NCBI RefSeq assembly: GCF_932526225.1
Contig: NC_064039.1
Span: forward strand, 6,257,459 to 6,321,458
Length of the DNA stretch: 64,000 nucleotides
Source: Nematostella vectensis
Taxonomy: Eukaryota
Direction of reading: 5' to 3'
Part shown: piece by piece, positions 6,201-15,367 of the stretch
Layout of the letters: each line of letters opens with the position of its first letter
How positions within the stretch are numbered: position 1 is the first letter of the stretch
Program-made: the position numbers and the translations under genes
The notes under the pieces: generated by a model
The model's input: only the letters and a program-made list of their open reading frames with translations
What the model was told of the DNA's origin: nothing
Database searches by the model: none

Positions 6201-9200
6201 GACAGTTCAACGACCATGCGCGATACGTTACATTTCACACGAAAGCAAAGCTCCTTGAGCAGCAACGCATACTCTGTCTATACAGCGCTTTTGTAGTAGA
6301 TATACGCTATTTCTCATAGAGTTTCGAAAATCCTTTTGAGCCCCTCACTTTTAGGCCAGCTCTGCAGCCCTTGATAGCAACTACATGGTGGAAAAAAATC
6401 TTCAACGAATCAATTTCTATTTATTCTCTGAACTTGTGCGTGATACTATAGTAGCTGCTGATTAAACTCTGTTTTTTTTATCGTAAATAAACTTACTAAA
6501 TTCTTCGCATACCATGAACTTGAAAACACTTTTTTGTCTTGTTGCAGTCGGCAGGTGTGTAAGTTCCCCTGCGCCATCCACGGCTTGTCGCTCAAATGCC
6601 GATCAAGGAGAACTGAGATGGTGGCTAACTTCGAGTTCAGACTTGACGAGAGTGTTATCTTCACGTCTCGCTTGTGTAACAATAGCTGCCTGCGATGCGA
6701 GGTAGAGAAAGGACTGCAGAAGTTCATAGCGGACTTGAGGCAGCTTGCTTCCAGTGATAAGTTCAACGTGACCCTGTCGGGTCAGGTTTTTACGGTCAAC
6801 GGAAAACCCATAAAAGTACCACGACTGCGCAACGCCTGTCCTCAAGGAAGACGGCGCAAAAACAAAAGACTCGGTAAGCGAATGACTTCAATGATAGTAC
6901 TATACATTTCCATCGCCCATATGTGTGAGTAAAGCGAGCCCTATCCTCGGGGACCCAGGGCGTTTCGGAGATCGGGCACACAGGGAGCGCGCGAAAAGAA
7001 AGACCTGTGTGCCCGATCTCCGCGACGCCCTGGGTCCCCGAGGATGAGCGAGCCCCATGGCGGCTGTGTTGTAGGCGCCCCCATCGTCAAAGGGAGGGGA
7101 GACGAGGGAGGGACTTTTTAGCTCCCCGTGCAATCGAAAGGATGCAAAGCTAAAGACTCTCTATAGGCAGAGAGGTAGCAAAACTGCAAAGCATTGGTGC
7201 ACGCCGACATTGGGAGATAAACATCATTCCCCTTTCACGCTTGAGCTTGGCTATCCTTTATGTCTCATATTCAGGATACGATAGCCACACCCCTAGCCAA
7301 AATCACGGATAGCCACACCCCTAACCATACTCACGGAAAGCCACACCCCTAACAATACTCATGGAAAGCCACACCTCTAACCACACTCACGGATAGCCAC
7401 ACCCCTAACCATACACACGGATAGCCACACCATAATACTCACGGATAGCCACACCCCTAACCATACCTACGGATAGCCACACCCCTAACCAGGCTCACGG
7501 ATAGCCACACGCCTAACTATATTCACGGATGGCCACTTTCCTAACCATACTCACGGATGGCATGGATTGTCGTTGCAGCTGGATGCCATCCTGGTATGTA
7601 CTTTGACATCTTCCTGCGGAGATGTGTCAATTGCACACGAGGATCCTTCCAGCCTCAACGCTCGGAGACCTTCTGCTTTCGCTGTCCTGGCAACAAGACG
7701 ACGCTGTACTCTGGCGCACGTGACCTGTCTCAGTGTAGAGGTATATGCGAGCAATATATAAAGGGGAAAACGAAAATCGGAAAAGAAAACCATTTATGTT
7801 GCTAACAGCAAGTAGGACAATAGTTTCCTATGGTAGAAAACATCTCATATATTATTGTATGCCTGCCTCACTTATAAAGAGGCGTAGCCAAGGGGTGGCC
7901 TAGGGGGACCCCCCCCCCCCTCTAGCAGCCAAAAATACAGTAAATGTATGAAACATTATCTAAAATACAGGAGAAAATGCCTTGAAAGGGCCTTTTGGGC
8001 CCCCTCCTGTTTAAAATCCTGGCTACGCCGCTGCTTATATTATGTCCAAGCCAGATTAGCCTACGTGTAGCCGCTGACTCGCGAAACAGCGGCTACACGT
8101 AGGCTAAAGCCAGATAGGCCACATAAATAAATTGCACATCCAGACACTAGGCTTACGGGGGTACTGCACATCTTGTCACTTCTGTAATACTTGCATTGCC
8201 TGTCCAGGGATTATAGAGTGCCAACACAGGAATTACACAGTGCCTGAAATAATAAATGGTGGGATCAGAATTTTGCACTATATAAACACCAAGCTGCATG
8301 TCCTTTTTTGTCTTGTAGACAAAGATAATAATACTATTTCGGGCTGTATATTAGCCACGCATTATGTGTGTTGGGGGAGGGGGCAGAATTTGTAAACGAT
8401 TTGTTGAATGTAGCTCCTAACCTTATTAAAGTATCTGCCAAAATTGGCTTGCAAGTACTGATTGGCTCAGAATGGTTTTACTGACGACACAGAAAACCAA
8501 AACAAATCGTGTTTGAAAAAAGCGGGTCGCGATACAACGGATTCGACAGTAATGTATGCACTCTCTTTGTTTCCATAGAAACAAAATGCGGTGGAAACCT
8601 GACATCAATGTCAGGCGTCATAACATCCCCAAACTACCCCGACGCCTACCCTCGCTTCCTGGAATGTACCTGGACAATCCATCCGCGAAGAGGGCGCAAC
8701 ATCTTGCTTCTTATTCCAAGTATCTCGCTTCCGACCACGCCCGACTGCTCGGACTATCTGACGATGCGGGAGAGTTCGAGTCCTTACTCTGTGTTTACAT
8801 ATTACGCGTGTGAGTCCTTCGATCAGCCCGTGGCGTTAGTGTCACGCTCCAAGAACCTCCATATCAAGTTTAAGTCGAGCCAGAACAGCATGGCGGAGGG
8901 ATTCAAAATATTTTATGTCACATTTGAAGGTAGGTGTCCTTTCCTTAGCTACGCACGTTTGGGTTCTTTGATTAAAAACAACAGCATTTTTACCTGTGTT
9001 TTTTAGAGCGTTTCAGGAACATTGTGAAACACATCGTTGAAGACGGGGAGTTGTATGCAAATGAAACAAACAGACGACTGCTTCAGGTGGGAACAACAAT
9101 ATCAAATTGTTTGACTAGACAGGTCCCTGGACATTGAAAGTTTTCTTGTCGGCTGTAAAAGTCCAGCATTTCTCAATTCTTTTAAATTTTGTTATCTCAG

Positions 9201-9857
9201 GTACGGAGTGGAATCCCTCACTTTGTTCAAGCATTCACCATTTCTCAAGCCCTTATAATTTTGTCAATCTCAGGGACGGATCCAGGGTTGAACCCGTTTT
9301 ATATGAAAAATTTCAGGTTACACTTTATCCTCGACCTCCTTTAATCGTTCAATTGTTTGCAAGTCTTTGTTATAGTCACCTCCCCCTCAGGTTGTCAAGA
9401 TCAGCCTTACTATATAAAGGCCTCCCCATAAAACAATGCTGAGTGTTATGGGACTCCAGGCACGAGGCAAAGAGCGGGGCTCTGGGCCCGTATCCCCTCC
9501 CAATATTTTCAGAATTGTAAGGAATGGACCAGTAAGGGCGTGGCTGTGCCCTCCAATATTTTCTTAATGTTTTTGTATCGTGCCCCCAATATTTAGAGGC
9601 CTGCTACAGGTCTACACTGCCATGATGGTAACTCGATCAATTTTAATTCTCTTTGACAGGATGAGACTCTTGTGCGCCAAATTCTGGACGTGATAGTAGA
9701 CCCATCGAGCTTTGAATATTCAATCAGCTCCAATCGCTTACACAGCAAGATTCCAAGTGGATTGCTAAAGTTCATTGAAAATAAAGTGTACGACTTTTTC
9801 TCGAACGTCAGTCCTTACAGGAAAAAGCGAGCAACACAGAGATCAACTTTCGTCTGA
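258..9857 (+). CDS. SCUBE-like secreted protein gene, multi-exon (unknown N-terminal domain, EGF, cbEGF, spacer, GCC2/GCC3-type Cys-rich repeat, CUB, SCUBE-type C-terminal tail)
   Basis: Exons were read from ORF frames plus splice consensus; phases are consistent from exon 2 onward. Exons: 479/491..1175; 4959..5084 (EGF: CAKIRHLCHKHADCRNTDAGYRCMCKPGFVGNG; GC-AG donor AAG|GCAAGT); 5777..5899 (cbEGF: [31 protein letters not shown]); 5983..6103; 6548..6873; 7579..7740 (GCHPGMYFD..CVNCTRGSFQ..FCFRCPGNKTT); 8579..8929 (CUB: CGGNLTSMSGVITSPNYPDAYPRFLECTWTI); 9007..9086; 9660..9857 (TGA). 258..315 (MWSLRTHGTAYILLLLTNQ, donor AAG|GTAAGA) looks like a signal-peptide exon. Its phase (1) does not fit the acceptors at 478 or 490, so the 5' end is unresolved. 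Confidence 0.7.
4511..4858. mobile_element. MITE with ~40-bp TIRs and TTA target duplication (PIF/Harbinger-like), in a SCUBE-like intron
   Basis: The left end GGTCCGATTCATACGTCGCGCTCCAGCCGTACTGAATC pairs with the reverse complement of the right end GGCCCGATTTCTACGTCGCGCTCCTACTGTGCCGAATCC. TTA flanks both sides (4508..4510 and 4859..4861). Confidence 0.65.
5218..5364. mobile_element. MITE-like element with GGCC(C/G)(G/T)AGCCAGG termini
   Basis: The left end is GGCCCGGAGCCAGGATTTTAAGCGGGGGG and the right end is CCCCCCTGGCTACGGGCC. It appears to be the same family as 7881..8029. Confidence 0.45.
7270..7556. repeat. 28-bp minisatellite (CACGGATAGCCACACCCCTAACCATACT), ~10 copies
   Basis: Direct tandem copies in the intron just before the GCC2/GCC3 exon. 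The left breakpoint of the segmental duplication falls in its last units. Confidence 0.9.
7881..8029. mobile_element. MITE-like element (GGCGTAGCCAAGG ... CCTGGCTACGCC); second copy at 12323..12465 within the duplication
   Basis: It has 12-13-bp terminal inverted repeats. Its internal CCAGGATTTTAAACAGGAGGGGG resembles the end of 5218..5364. Confidence 0.4.
8057..8106. repeat. Perfect 20-bp-stem hairpin (TAGCCTACGTGTAGCCGCTG / CAGCGGCTACACGTAGGCTA); duplicate at 12493..12542
   Basis: Exact inverted repeat with a 10-nt loop, flanked by GCCAGAT direct repeats. Confidence 0.85.
9475..9606 (+). repeat. Dispersed ~135-bp repeat family (SINE/MITE-like); other copies at 13901..14031 (+) and 26201..26338 (-)
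   Basis: The copies share the blocks CCAATATTTTCA(G/A)AATT(G/A)TAAGGAA, CCAA(A)TATTTTCTTAATGTT.TTGTAT.GTGCCCCC and GGCCTGCTA. Confidence 0.6.
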
Positions 9858-14900: not shown

Positions 14901-15367
14901 TACTAAATTAAAATAAATAGATAAATACTGTTAAGGATTAAACTGCAAGTTTATCACCCCCCTCCCCCCCAAAAAACATTGTATTTTTGTAGAAACATTG
15001 GTTGATATACTTTATCTATGGGTCTGATTCTGAGAGGCTGGGTTGGGTTCTAATTAGGACACAAGCACAATGCAAACATTTGTTTCCATTTTGAAATGGG
15101 AATGTAAGTGAACACAATCTGGTTGATGTCATTGCATTTTGTGCTTAACTGTATCATTAAGTGAGACAAGATTTCTTTTACATTTATCTAGTACATATTA
15201 AGCATTTTTACAGTTTTTATGAGACCATATAAGGTTTATTACAAAGTAGACCTTTTACAATTTATCAGACTTGAGCTTGTACATAAAATAAAGTTAAACA
15301 AATACAAGAAAAAGCTTGCAAAAAAAAAAACAATGACTTCATTTATTGGGCACAACTTCTTAATGTA
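11951..15367 (+). repeat. Segmental duplication, copy B (~3.4 kb)
   Basis: See copy A. The copies are separated by ~1 kb of unique sequence (10938..11950). Confidence 0.9.
12023..14283 (+). CDS. Duplicated 3' exon cassette of the SCUBE-like gene (GCC2/GCC3 exon, CUB exon, two tail exons). Either a partial gene copy or an alternative 3' cassette
   Basis: Exons 12023..12184, 13015..13365, 13433..13512 and 14086..14283 are near-identical to 7579..7740, 8579..8929, 9007..9086 and 9660..9857. Reading frames, AG/GT junctions and the stop codon are all intact. Only a few substitutions are seen (SFQPQ>SFQSQ, GARD>GTRD, EYSIS>EYSVS). No upstream EGF exons belong to this copy. Confidence 0.5.

What the first reader, a model, noticed from the sequence alone, without database searches (positions are those of the whole stretch)
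7510..15367. Near-identical 3.4-kb tandem duplication of the last four exons (GCC2/GCC3, CUB, tail) of the SCUBE-like gene
Seen in sequence:
- 7510..10937 and 11951..15367 differ only by scattered substitutions and small indels, at an offset of 4426-4444 bp.
- All four exons, their splice sites, phases and the stop codon are intact in both copies.
- The left breakpoint lies in the last units of the 28-bp GCCACACCC minisatellite. A GCCACACCC-like stretch recurs at 10950..10970 at the other junction.

Inference: this is a recent minisatellite-mediated unequal exchange. Exon 6548..6873 (phase 1) could splice to either 7579 or 12023. That would give mutually exclusive 3' cassettes whose products differ at a few residues. 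Otherwise copy B is an orphan gene fragment. A mis-assembled haplotype is the main alternative.
Basis: partly seen in the sequence, partly recalled or inferred. Interest (0 to 1): 0.5.

Follow-up and report, generated by a model that had tools for sequence, protein, structure and literature searches.

The report
Tandem duplicate of a gene's 3' end
The last four exons and 3' flank of a sea-anemone (Nematostella vectensis) SCUBE-like gene are present twice in tandem at about 98.5% identity; this is most likely an ordinary young partial gene duplication whose second copy is an orphan fragment.

Summary
Window 7507-10944 (copy A) and 11951-15370 (copy B) align at 98.46% over 3440 columns, head to tail, separated by a 1006-bp spacer found nowhere else in the window. 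All four exons, their splice sites, phases and the stop codon are intact in both copies. The left breakpoint lies in a 28-bp minisatellite.

The window is Nematostella vectensis. RefSeq already models the full gene with copy A (XP_001641237.3, 726 aa) and copy B as a separate truncated 270-aa gene (XP_048585015.1).

The independent 2007 Sanger assembly shows the spacer|copy B junction and one copy. It has an N gap exactly where copy A would sit, so it neither confirms nor refutes two copies.

A, B and the 2007 copy are equidistant (about 1% substitutions each pair). A-B divergence is therefore at allelic level.

I favour a real duplication. The window has no gap, and the A|spacer junction shows no homology that could explain a haplotig join. 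Simple minisatellite unequal exchange does not explain the 1-kb spacer.

Copy B carries two derived replacements at residues invariant in the coral orthologues aligned. It is probably an orphan fragment. Its use as an alternative 3' cassette is untested.

Interest is low to moderate.

The parts
258..9857 (+). Full SCUBE-like gene of Nematostella vectensis (RefSeq XP_001641237.3, 726 aa), 10 coding exons; it uses copy A as its 3' end
   Evidence: tblastn of P0009 onto the window gives 99.5-100% identity in every exon block. Pfam finds EGF_3/EGF_CA/cEGF, Ephrin_rec_like (GCC2/GCC3) and CUB.
6548..6873 (+). Last unduplicated exon (cysteine-rich spacer region). It ends one base into a codon and could in principle join either acceptor, 7579 or 12023.
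   Evidence: Sequence and translation.
6943..7045 (.). 42-nt inverted repeat (95% complementary, 19-nt loop) in the intron. The 2007 assembly contig ends at window 6955, inside its left arm.
7280..7558 (+). 28-bp minisatellite (consensus GATAGCCACACCCCTAACCATACTCACG), about 10 units. The left duplication breakpoint is inside unit 9.
   Evidence: TRF; unit listing; alignment.
7507..10944 (+). Copy A of the duplicated segment (3438 bp): the last 1.7 minisatellite units, 4 exons, 3 introns, and 1087 bp after the stop codon
   Evidence: blastn 98.46% to copy B; difference list.
7579..7740 (+). Copy A exon: GCC2/GCC3 (Pfam Ephrin_rec_like) cysteine-rich repeat. It keeps Pro and Ala at positions that are invariant in the coral orthologues aligned.
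8579..8929 (+). Copy A exon: CUB domain
9007..9086 (+). Copy A exon: C-terminal tail, part 1
9660..9857 (+). Copy A exon: C-terminal tail, part 2, with stop TGA at 9855-9857
9948..9967 (+). AATAAA (9948) and ATTAAA (9962), about 90-105 nt after the stop. They are present only in copy A; copy B and the 2007 copy read AATAAC and ATTATA.
10945..11950 (.). 1006-bp spacer between the copies: 16 nt of unrelated sequence, one minisatellite core AGCCACACCC (10961-10970), then about 980 nt found nowhere else in the window. ACACCC occurs at both ends of 10971-11950. There are no terminal inverted repeats.
   Evidence: Spacer positions 11227-11950 and their junction with the following copy are also present in the 2007 assembly.
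11951..15370 (+). Copy B of the duplicated segment (3420 bp), followed by the native-looking downstream flank and a convergent ChaC-like gene
12001..14283 (+). RefSeq model XP_048585015.1 (270 aa). Its ATG at 12001 lies in intron-derived sequence and reads through the acceptor into the four copy B exons (12023-12184, 13015-13365, 13433-13512, 14086-14283). It has no signal-peptide exon, no N-terminal domain and no EGF repeats.
   Evidence: P0001 matches the window at 100% in the three blocks tblastn returned (12001-12183, 14083-14280; the CUB block 13014-13373 is 98.3% only because it overruns the exon), and its residues equal my spliced copy-B translation from AGCHPG onward by inspection. Pfam finds only Ephrin_rec_like and CUB.

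Best explanation
This is a genuine, evolutionarily young, tandem partial-gene duplication in Nematostella vectensis.

**What was copied.** A 3.4-kb segment was copied once in the same orientation, about 4.4 kb downstream. It holds the last 1.7 units of an intronic minisatellite, the four 3' exons (GCC2/GCC3 repeat, CUB, two tail exons) and about 1.1 kb of 3' flank of the SCUBE-like gene.

**How the junction formed (inferred).**
- The left breakpoint fell inside the minisatellite.
- The junction is not a clean homologous exchange. It holds 16 nt of unrelated sequence, a 10-nt minisatellite core and about 980 nt of sequence found nowhere else in the window.
- One fitting route is end-joining or template-switching repair at a break in the array.
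- The other is a tandem duplication followed by a 1-kb insertion into the first unit of copy B.

**Functional consequence (inferred).**
- The full-length gene (signal peptide, lectin-like N-terminal domain, 2 EGF, spacer) splices into copy A and ends at copy A's polyadenylation signals.
- Copy B lacks a promoter, a signal peptide and the 5' exons. It is an orphan 3' fragment, a nascent pseudogene, which automatic annotation models as a separate 270-aa gene.
- Its splice acceptor is intact and in phase, so occasional use as an alternative terminal cassette is possible. It would change only three residues.

**Divergence.** A-B divergence is at allelic level. This suggests the two copies captured two different haplotypes (inter-homologue exchange), have exchanged sequence since, or both.
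For: **Shown**
- The two copies, their intact exons and the breakpoints.
- The window has no N, so no scaffold gap separates the copies.
- The sequence right of the A|spacer junction (10945 onwards) has no similarity to the sequence that precedes copy A, apart from the 10-nt core. It has none to the flank after copy B. No overlap exists that could have joined two haplotigs.
- The spacer|copy B junction is present in an independent assembly of other individuals, GCA_000209225.1, as a contiguous alignment L001 8548-13588 = window 11577-16608.
- The core AGCCACACCC occurs outside the array only at the junction, against 0.06 expected per window.
- RefSeq proteins XP_001641237.3 and XP_048585015.1 match copies A and B at 100% in the blocks tblastn returned, and by inspection throughout the spliced translations.
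- Copy A keeps Pro and Ala at positions invariant in the five coral-type sequences aligned. Copy B has Ser and Thr there. The 2007 copy, which sits in the copy B position, has Ser plus a Leu>Met. So all derived replacements at conserved sites are in B-position copies.
- Transcript-derived anthozoan orthologues of 726-728 aa carry the module once. The Desmophyllum locus has one copy with the same four-exon layout.

**From my own knowledge, not verified with the tools**
- The RefSeq N. vectensis assembly (GCF_932526225.1) is a long-read (HiFi) assembly. Single reads there would span the whole 7.9-kb structure.
Against: - No read-level evidence could be obtained.
- A-B, A-2007 and B-2007 distances are equal (0.965%, 1.022% and 0.965% substitutions).
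- Local genealogies differ by segment. C denotes the 2007 copy. 7716-8152 gives ((A,C),B), 8357-9141 gives ((B,C),A), and 10100-10425 gives ((A,B),C). Three exchangeable alleles of one locus would look exactly like this.
- The 2007 assembly contains only one copy, with a 50-N gap spanning exactly window 6956-11226. It may be a collapsed duplication or a true single-copy allele with the spacer in the intron.
- dN/dS between the copies (3 non-synonymous to 1 synonymous, ratio about 0.88) and coding versus non-coding divergence (4/791 vs 28/2647, Fisher p = 0.2) have no power.
- Whether copy B is transcribed is unknown.
Confidence: 0.65

Rival explanations
1. Assembly artefact. Copies A and B are the two haplotypes of a single-copy segment in a heterozygous animal, one with and one without a 1-kb intronic insertion, placed one after the other in the assembly.
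For: - A-B divergence (0.97% substitutions plus 7 indel events) equals the divergence of either copy from the 2007 allele. It lies within the 0.2-3% allelic divergence seen in the flanks.
- All three tree shapes occur along the segment.
- The 2007 assembly has one copy, preceded by the spacer. This fits a haplotype L-spacer-X-R against a haplotype L-minisatellite-X-R.
- The left boundary lies in a length-variable minisatellite, a natural place for haplotypes to diverge.
Against: - There is no N or gap anywhere in the 64-kb window.
- The join at 10944|10945 has no overlap or homology that an assembler could have used.
- False haplotype duplications typically sit at contig ends next to gaps (my own knowledge).
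- If the assembly is long-read, as I believe but did not verify, single reads cover the whole structure.
- Three different derived replacements at invariant residues within one 54-codon exon, among only three haplotypes, would be unusual for a single constrained gene.
Confidence: 0.15
2. The duplication is real and functional. The two copies act as alternative, mutually exclusive 3'-terminal cassettes of one gene, giving isoforms that differ at three residues and in the 3' UTR. Alternatively, copy B is an independently transcribed 270-aa gene.
For: - Both acceptors have identical 12-nt upstream contexts and the same phase as exon 6548-6873.
- All copy B exons and the stop codon are intact.
- RefSeq predicts a gene on copy B.
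- Copy A alone has two proximal poly(A) hexamers, so the two 3' ends differ.
- The same module is also tandemly duplicated in the Acropora digitifera draft assembly.
Against: - Copy A carries its own stop and poly(A) signals upstream of copy B, so transcripts should normally end before reaching it.
- The RefSeq model starts at an ATG in intron-derived sequence. It lacks the signal-peptide exon, although both of its domains are extracellular types.
- No transcript-derived N. vectensis protein carrying copy B residues was found in the 5.8-billion-protein collection.
- Copy B has derived changes at two invariant residues.
- Intactness is uninformative at about 1% divergence.
Confidence: 0.12
3. 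An old tandem duplicate of the 3' module, possibly shared with or recurrent among anthozoans, kept nearly identical by gene conversion.
For: - Acropora digitifera has two adjacent copies of the same module at 95-96% identity, annotated as XP_015767454.1 and XP_015767455.1.
- Segments with ((A,B),C) and ((A,C),B) tree shapes are compatible with exchange between paralogues.
Against: - Desmophyllum pertusum has a single copy within 22 kb.
- Introns and the 3' flank are as similar as the exons.
- The Acropora second copy runs exactly to a scaffold end, and an N gap precedes the first copy, so that case may itself be an artefact.
- The duplicated units start at different points in the two species: mid-exon in Acropora, in the intron in Nematostella.
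Confidence: 0.08

Closest known systems
Young partial (3'-fragment) tandem gene duplicates and small segmental duplications, as catalogued in animal genomes (general knowledge)
   Same: - Same-orientation local copy a few kb long.
- About 98.5% identity across exons, introns and flank alike.
- One copy lacks the 5' part of the gene and a promoter.
- The breakpoint lies in a tandem repeat.
   Different: - A 1-kb spacer found nowhere else in the window sits at the junction.
- Copy divergence equals allelic divergence rather than being lower.
False (haplotypic) duplications in genome assemblies (general knowledge)
   Same: - Two adjacent copies differ by about 1%, like alleles.
- One boundary lies in a hypervariable repeat.
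- An older assembly shows one copy.
   Different: - No gap or contig end lies between or beside the copies.
- The junction has no overlap homology.
- The spacer|copy B junction is seen independently in another assembly.
Vertebrate SCUBE1-3 (signal peptide, CUB and EGF-like domain-containing proteins)
   Same: - The C-terminal half has the same order: cysteine-rich spacer, GCC2/GCC3 (Ephrin_rec_like) repeat, CUB, then a short conserved tail.
- NCBI names the protein SCUBE2-like.
   Different: - Only 2 EGF-type repeats and 1 GCC2/GCC3 repeat were detected. From memory, vertebrate SCUBEs have 9 and 3.
- A roughly 210-aa N-terminal domain has no Pfam or PDB sequence match and a predicted concanavalin-A-like beta-sandwich fold. 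From memory, vertebrate SCUBEs lack such a domain.
Acropora digitifera pair XP_015767454.1 / XP_015767455.1
   Same: The orthologous GCC2/GCC3-CUB-tail module is present twice head to tail (L003 9804-15752 and 15758-21261, 95-96% identity), and both copies are annotated as truncated genes.
   Different: - No spacer.
- The unit begins inside the upstream exon.
- The second copy ends at the scaffold end, and an N gap precedes the first, in a short-read draft (sequencing technology is from my own knowledge). Its reality is doubtful.
Tandem arrays of mutually exclusive exons or alternative last-exon cassettes (e.g. Dscam-type clusters; general knowledge)
   Same: Duplicated exons keep identical acceptor contexts and phase downstream of a shared exon.
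   Different: - Each cassette here carries its own stop and poly(A) region.
- The copies differ by only 3 residues.
- No transcript evidence for alternative use exists.

Membership tests
Tandem segmental (partial-gene) duplication | Two copies in the same orientation, adjacent, similar over exons, introns and flank alike | tested here: met
   98.46% over 3440 columns. Coding divergence 4/791 vs non-coding 28/2647, not significantly different.
Tandem segmental (partial-gene) duplication | Both novel junctions lie in uninterrupted sequence | tested here: met
   No N in the window. Junctions 10944|10945 and 11950|11951 were read directly.
Tandem segmental (partial-gene) duplication | Two copies seen in independent data from the species | tested here: inconclusive
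   The 2007 assembly shows the spacer|copy junction and one copy. A 50-N gap replaces window 6956-11226, where copy A would be.
Tandem segmental (partial-gene) duplication | Normal read depth per copy, and reads spanning both copies | not testable with these tools
   No read data are available. Two metagenome scans, one for the junction and one for the spacer, found nothing.
Unequal exchange (NAHR) between minisatellite units | Repeat homology at both ends of the duplicated unit, and a junction that consists only of a hybrid repeat | tested here: not met
   The left breakpoint is in the array, and one 10-nt core lies 16 nt from the end of copy A. However, about 1 kb of sequence found nowhere else in the window lies at the junction, and the flank after copy B is unrelated to it.
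Haplotypic false duplication | Copies abut a gap or contig end, or are joined through an overlap | tested here: not met
   No N. No homology across 10944|10945.
Haplotypic false duplication | Divergence between the copies is at the level of allelic divergence | tested here: met
   A-B 0.965%, A-2007 1.022%, B-2007 0.965%.
Haplotypic false duplication | Half-normal read depth over both copies | not testable with these tools
   No reads are available.
SCUBE family | CUB domain near the C-terminus, preceded by GCC2/GCC3-type cysteine-rich repeats | tested here: met
   Pfam CUB 1.4e-17 and Ephrin_rec_like 3.5e-10, but only one repeat.
SCUBE family | N-terminal run of about nine EGF-like repeats directly after the signal peptide (defining architecture recalled from memory) | tested here: not met
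   Pfam EGF-type matches cover only residues 236-313, about two EGF units. A 210-aa non-EGF domain precedes them.
SCUBE family | Signal peptide | not tested
   The first exon (258-314) encodes MWSLRTHGTAYILLLLTNQ, which is hydrophobic, but no predictor was run.
Alternative terminal-exon cassettes | Transcripts joining the shared upstream exon to each cassette | not testable with these tools
   Acceptors and phase are compatible. No transcript data exist, and RefSeq models copy B as a separate gene.

The most novel reading that the evidence does not exclude
The 3' module (GCC2/GCC3, CUB, tail) of the anthozoan SCUBE-like gene is a recurrent target of tandem duplication: independently in Nematostella and Acropora. 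The duplicated cassettes are used as alternative 3' ends, with copy A having acquired its own proximal poly(A) signals. This would be a nascent example of alternative terminal-cassette evolution in a cnidarian signalling protein.
Probability: 0.07. Interest if true: 0.45.

Novelty: new member of a known kind. Interest (0 to 1): 0.22.

Why it matters
**If the duplication is real**
- It is a clean, datable example of how a partial gene copy arises at a minisatellite in a model cnidarian.
- It warns that the RefSeq gene XP_048585015.1 ("SCUBE2", 270 aa) is a 3' fragment rather than a separate SCUBE paralogue. That matters for gene counts, orthology tables, and for mapping short reads or designing guides and morpholinos against this gene, because exon reads multi-map.

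**If it is an artefact**
- It flags a local error in the reference assembly.

Either way the biological consequence is small. The predicted products differ at three residues.

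Tried and rejected
- **Retrocopy.** Rejected. Both copies keep all three introns.
- **Spacer as a DNA transposon or a local repeat.** It has no terminal inverted repeats and no second copy in the window. The ACACCC direct repeat at its ends may simply reflect minisatellite sequence, so the spacer's origin is unresolved.
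- **Spacer as diverged intron sequence.** A word-7 blastn against the rest of the window found nothing. The only local similarity is the 10-nt core plus a weak extension to the first minisatellite unit.
- **Looking up the RefSeq proteins to fetch their contig.** They are not on record.
- **Scanning the metagenome collection.** Searches for the A|spacer junction and for spacer sequence gave 0 hits and are uninformative.
- **Literature.** No paper holds the term jaNemVec1.1. None of the seven papers mentioning both SCUBE and Nematostella has either word in its title or abstract, and the only one I read describes no Nematostella SCUBE gene. The Nvec200 paper describes Canu plus Purge Haplotigs for a different assembly.
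- **Using the 2007 copy to root A against B.** Three sequences give only a star with equal branches (17, 15 and 17 unique substitutions). The runs test for blockiness is marginal (P = 0.056).
- **dN/dS.** Four coding differences are too few.
- **An 11.6-kb Acropora-type ENA contig.** It ends about 770 bp after the last exon, too early to show whether a second copy follows.
- **Rfam scan.** It found no RNA gene in the duplicated segment.

Full report
**1. The observation**

The repeat finder, a self-blastn and a global alignment agree. Window 7507-10944 and 11951-15370 are direct copies, 98.46% identical over 3440 columns (31 mismatches, 8 gap openings), offset by 4425-4444 bp. Nothing else of this kind lies nearby, and the window contains no N.

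A 28-bp minisatellite of about 10 units spans 7280-7558. Homology between the copies begins at 7506|7507, between AGCC and ACAC of the ninth unit, so copy B keeps only the last 1.7 units.

Copy A ends at 10944 and is followed by a 1006-bp spacer (10945-11950). Copy B ends at 15370 and is followed by unrelated sequence.

The 10-mer AGCCACACCC occurs six times in the array and once more in the whole 64 kb, at 10961-10970, 16 nt after copy A. Chance expectation is 0.06.

**2. The gene and the organism**

The four duplicated exons are listed below.

| Exon | Copy A | Copy B |
|---|---|---|
| GCC2/GCC3 repeat | 7579-7740 | 12023-12184 |
| CUB | 8579-8929 | 13015-13365 |
| Tail, part 1 | 9007-9086 | 13433-13512 |
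| Tail, part 2, with stop | 9660-9857 | 14086-14283 |

- All AG/GT splice dinucleotides are present in both copies. The 12-nt flanks are identical except at the CUB-exon donor (11-bp indel 8 nt into the intron) and the last acceptor (one T-run indel). Phases and stop codon are the same.
- They encode a GCC2/GCC3 repeat (Pfam Ephrin_rec_like), a CUB domain and a tail.
- A protein search identified Nematostella vectensis. XP_048585015.1 (270 aa) matches copy B at 100% in the tblastn blocks and equals my copy-B translation by inspection. XP_001641237.3 (726 aa) threads onto window 258-9857 at 99.5-100% per exon block and uses copy A.
- The window is therefore the RefSeq assembly or an identical haplotype.
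- The RefSeq model for copy B starts at an ATG (12001) in the intron-derived sequence just upstream of the acceptor. It contains no signal-peptide exon, no N-terminal domain and no EGF repeats.

The full protein consists of:
- a hydrophobic N-terminus;
- about two EGF-type units, a cysteine-rich spacer, one GCC2/GCC3 repeat, a CUB domain and a tail.

It shares the C-terminal half of vertebrate SCUBEs but not their N-terminal architecture.

**3. Independent evidence**

The only other N. vectensis DNA reachable was the 2007 Sanger assembly (L001; GCA_000209225.1). Its alignment to the window runs as follows.

| L001 | Window | Note |
|---|---|---|
| 511-7481 | 1-6955 | upstream gene and intron |
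| 7482-7531 | none | 50 N |
| 7532-7885 | 11227-11581 | spacer |
| 7886-8547 | none | 662-bp insertion |
| 8548-13588 | 11577-16608 | rest of spacer, one copy, downstream flank |

- The spacer|copy junction exists in unrelated animals and in an assembly made by a different method.
- The stretch that would hold the minisatellite, copy A and the A|spacer junction (window 6956-11226) falls exactly in the gap.
- The left contig ends inside a 42-nt inverted repeat.
- The old assembly is compatible with a collapsed duplication and equally with a single-copy allele that has the spacer in its intron.

**4. Three-way comparison**

C denotes the 2007 copy.

- Pairwise substitution distances are A-B 0.965%, A-C 1.022% and B-C 0.965%.
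- Unique substitutions number 17 for A, 15 for B and 17 for C.
- Tree shape changes along the segment: 7716-8152 gives ((A,C),B), 8357-9141 gives ((B,C),A), and 10100-10425 gives ((A,B),C).
- The runs test for blockiness is marginal (P = 0.056).

A-B divergence is thus indistinguishable from allelic divergence. Three scenarios fit:
- two alleles mis-assembled in tandem;
- a duplication formed by exchange between two different homologues;
- a fixed duplication with gene conversion that the 2007 assembly collapsed.

Sequence comparison alone cannot separate these.

**5. Why I favour a real duplication**

- The copies lie in uninterrupted sequence.
- The sequence right of 10944 has no similarity to what precedes copy A or to what follows copy B, beyond the 10-nt core. 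No overlap exists through which two haplotigs could have been merged.
- False haplotype duplications normally sit at contig ends beside gaps (my own knowledge).
- If, as I believe from general knowledge but could not verify, the RefSeq assembly is HiFi-based, single reads exceed the 7.9-kb structure.
- A weaker argument comes from constraint. Copy A keeps Pro and Ala at two positions invariant in the five coral-type sequences aligned. Copy B has Ser and Thr. The 2007 copy, flanked like copy B, has Ser plus a Leu>Met at another conserved site. All derived replacements therefore sit in B-position copies, as expected if those are redundant.
- dN/dS (3 non-synonymous to 1 synonymous, about 0.88) and coding versus non-coding divergence (Fisher p = 0.2) have no power.

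**6. Mechanism**

A plain unequal exchange between minisatellite units predicts a hybrid unit at the junction and nothing more. If the spacer belonged to the unit, it predicts a second spacer after copy B. Neither is seen.

The junction reads: copy A end, then 16 nt unrelated, then AGCCACACCC, then about 980 nt found nowhere else in the window, then ACACCCCTAAC and the rest of copy B.

Two readings fit.
- (a) A tandem duplication with a short filler that re-entered the array at AGCC, followed by a 980-bp insertion with ACACCC on both sides. This requires the insertion to land within 4 nt of the junction.
- (b) A single repair or replication event with several template switches that used the minisatellite core as microhomology.

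In either reading the spacer is junctional. Its presence upstream of the 2007 copy would then imply that those animals carry the duplication too. If the spacer is instead old intron sequence, copy A was inserted upstream of it. An outgroup is needed to decide.

**7. Function (inferred)**

- Copy A has its own stop and poly(A) hexamers. Two proximal ones, AATAAA at 9948 and ATTAAA at 9962, are absent from copy B and from the 2007 copy.
- Transcripts of the full gene should therefore end before reaching copy B.
- Copy B has no upstream exons of its own.
- The transcript-derived anthozoan orthologues retrieved (726-728 aa) contain the module once. The Desmophyllum locus has one copy with the same four-exon layout.
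- I conclude that copy B is most likely an orphan 3' fragment. Alternative-cassette use is possible but unsupported.

**8. A parallel**

- In the Acropora digitifera draft assembly the orthologous module is also present twice head to tail (L003 9804-15752 and 15758-21261, 95-96% identity). The copies are annotated as two truncated genes.
- The second copy ends at the scaffold end, and an N gap precedes the first, so it may be an artefact.
- An 11.6-kb ENA contig of a related coral ends too early to tell.

**9. Verdict**

| Explanation | Confidence |
|---|---|
| Real young partial tandem duplication with an orphan second copy | 0.65 |
| Haplotype assembly artefact | 0.15 |
| Functional alternative cassette or separate gene | 0.12 |
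| Old duplicate homogenised by gene conversion | 0.08 |

This is an ordinary kind of event, already visible in the RefSeq annotation as two genes, and of low to moderate interest.

Noticed in passing
L003 9804-15752 and 15758-21261 (Acropora digitifera GCA_000222465.2, DF970962.1): The orthologous GCC2/GCC3-CUB-tail module is also tandemly duplicated (95-96% identity, copies 5 bp apart) and annotated as XP_015767454.1 and XP_015767455.1. The second copy ends at the scaffold end, an N gap (8547-9629) precedes the first, and a 160-bp piece is repeated in inverted orientation at 100% identity (11651-11810 vs 17398-17239).
   Followed up: partly
L001 7886-8547 (2007 N. vectensis assembly); insertion point is window 11577-11581: A 662-bp insertion absent from the window lies inside the spacer. 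It looks like the 3' end of a non-LTR retroelement (my reading of the sequence; no search run): it ends in (GATGTA)n and is flanked by a TAGAC duplication. This is an insertion polymorphism.
   Followed up: partly
window 6943-6984 / 7004-7045: A 42-nt inverted repeat (95% complementary, 19-nt loop) lies in the intron upstream of the minisatellite. The 2007 Sanger contig stops inside its left arm, at window 6955.
   Followed up: partly
window 9948-9967 vs 14374-14393: Two substitutions 13 nt apart give copy A an AATAAA and an ATTAAA about 90-105 nt after the stop codon. Copy B and the 2007 copy lack both.
   Followed up: partly
[not shown]
   Followed up: yes
window 57195-57262 (+): Rfam finds a mir-9460 microRNA precursor (102.9 bits; gathering score 85).
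   Followed up: no
window 24633-25597, 29141-29664, 31872-32442, 33994-34244, 36434-37485, 39458-40896, 62498-62952: There are many long minisatellite arrays, with periods of roughly 37, 61, 62, 25, about 200, 32 and about 160 bp. All are resolved without gaps.
   Followed up: no
window 45749-46266 vs 61888-62383 (opposite strands): Two internally repetitive segments about 16 kb apart, each roughly 0.5 kb and about 90% identical, lie in inverted orientation.
   Followed up: no
window 8458-8553 and 12894-12989, also 31587-31682: A 96-bp element in the intron before the CUB exon, present in both copies, recurs at 94.8% identity 19-23 kb downstream. It is probably a small interspersed repeat.
   Followed up: no
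L002 (Desmophyllum pertusum GCA_029204205.1, MU826830.1): The single-copy orthologue is split by the annotation into two gene models (334 aa and 236 aa). Truncated 'SCUBE' entries in cnidarian protein sets are therefore not all duplicates.
   Followed up: partly
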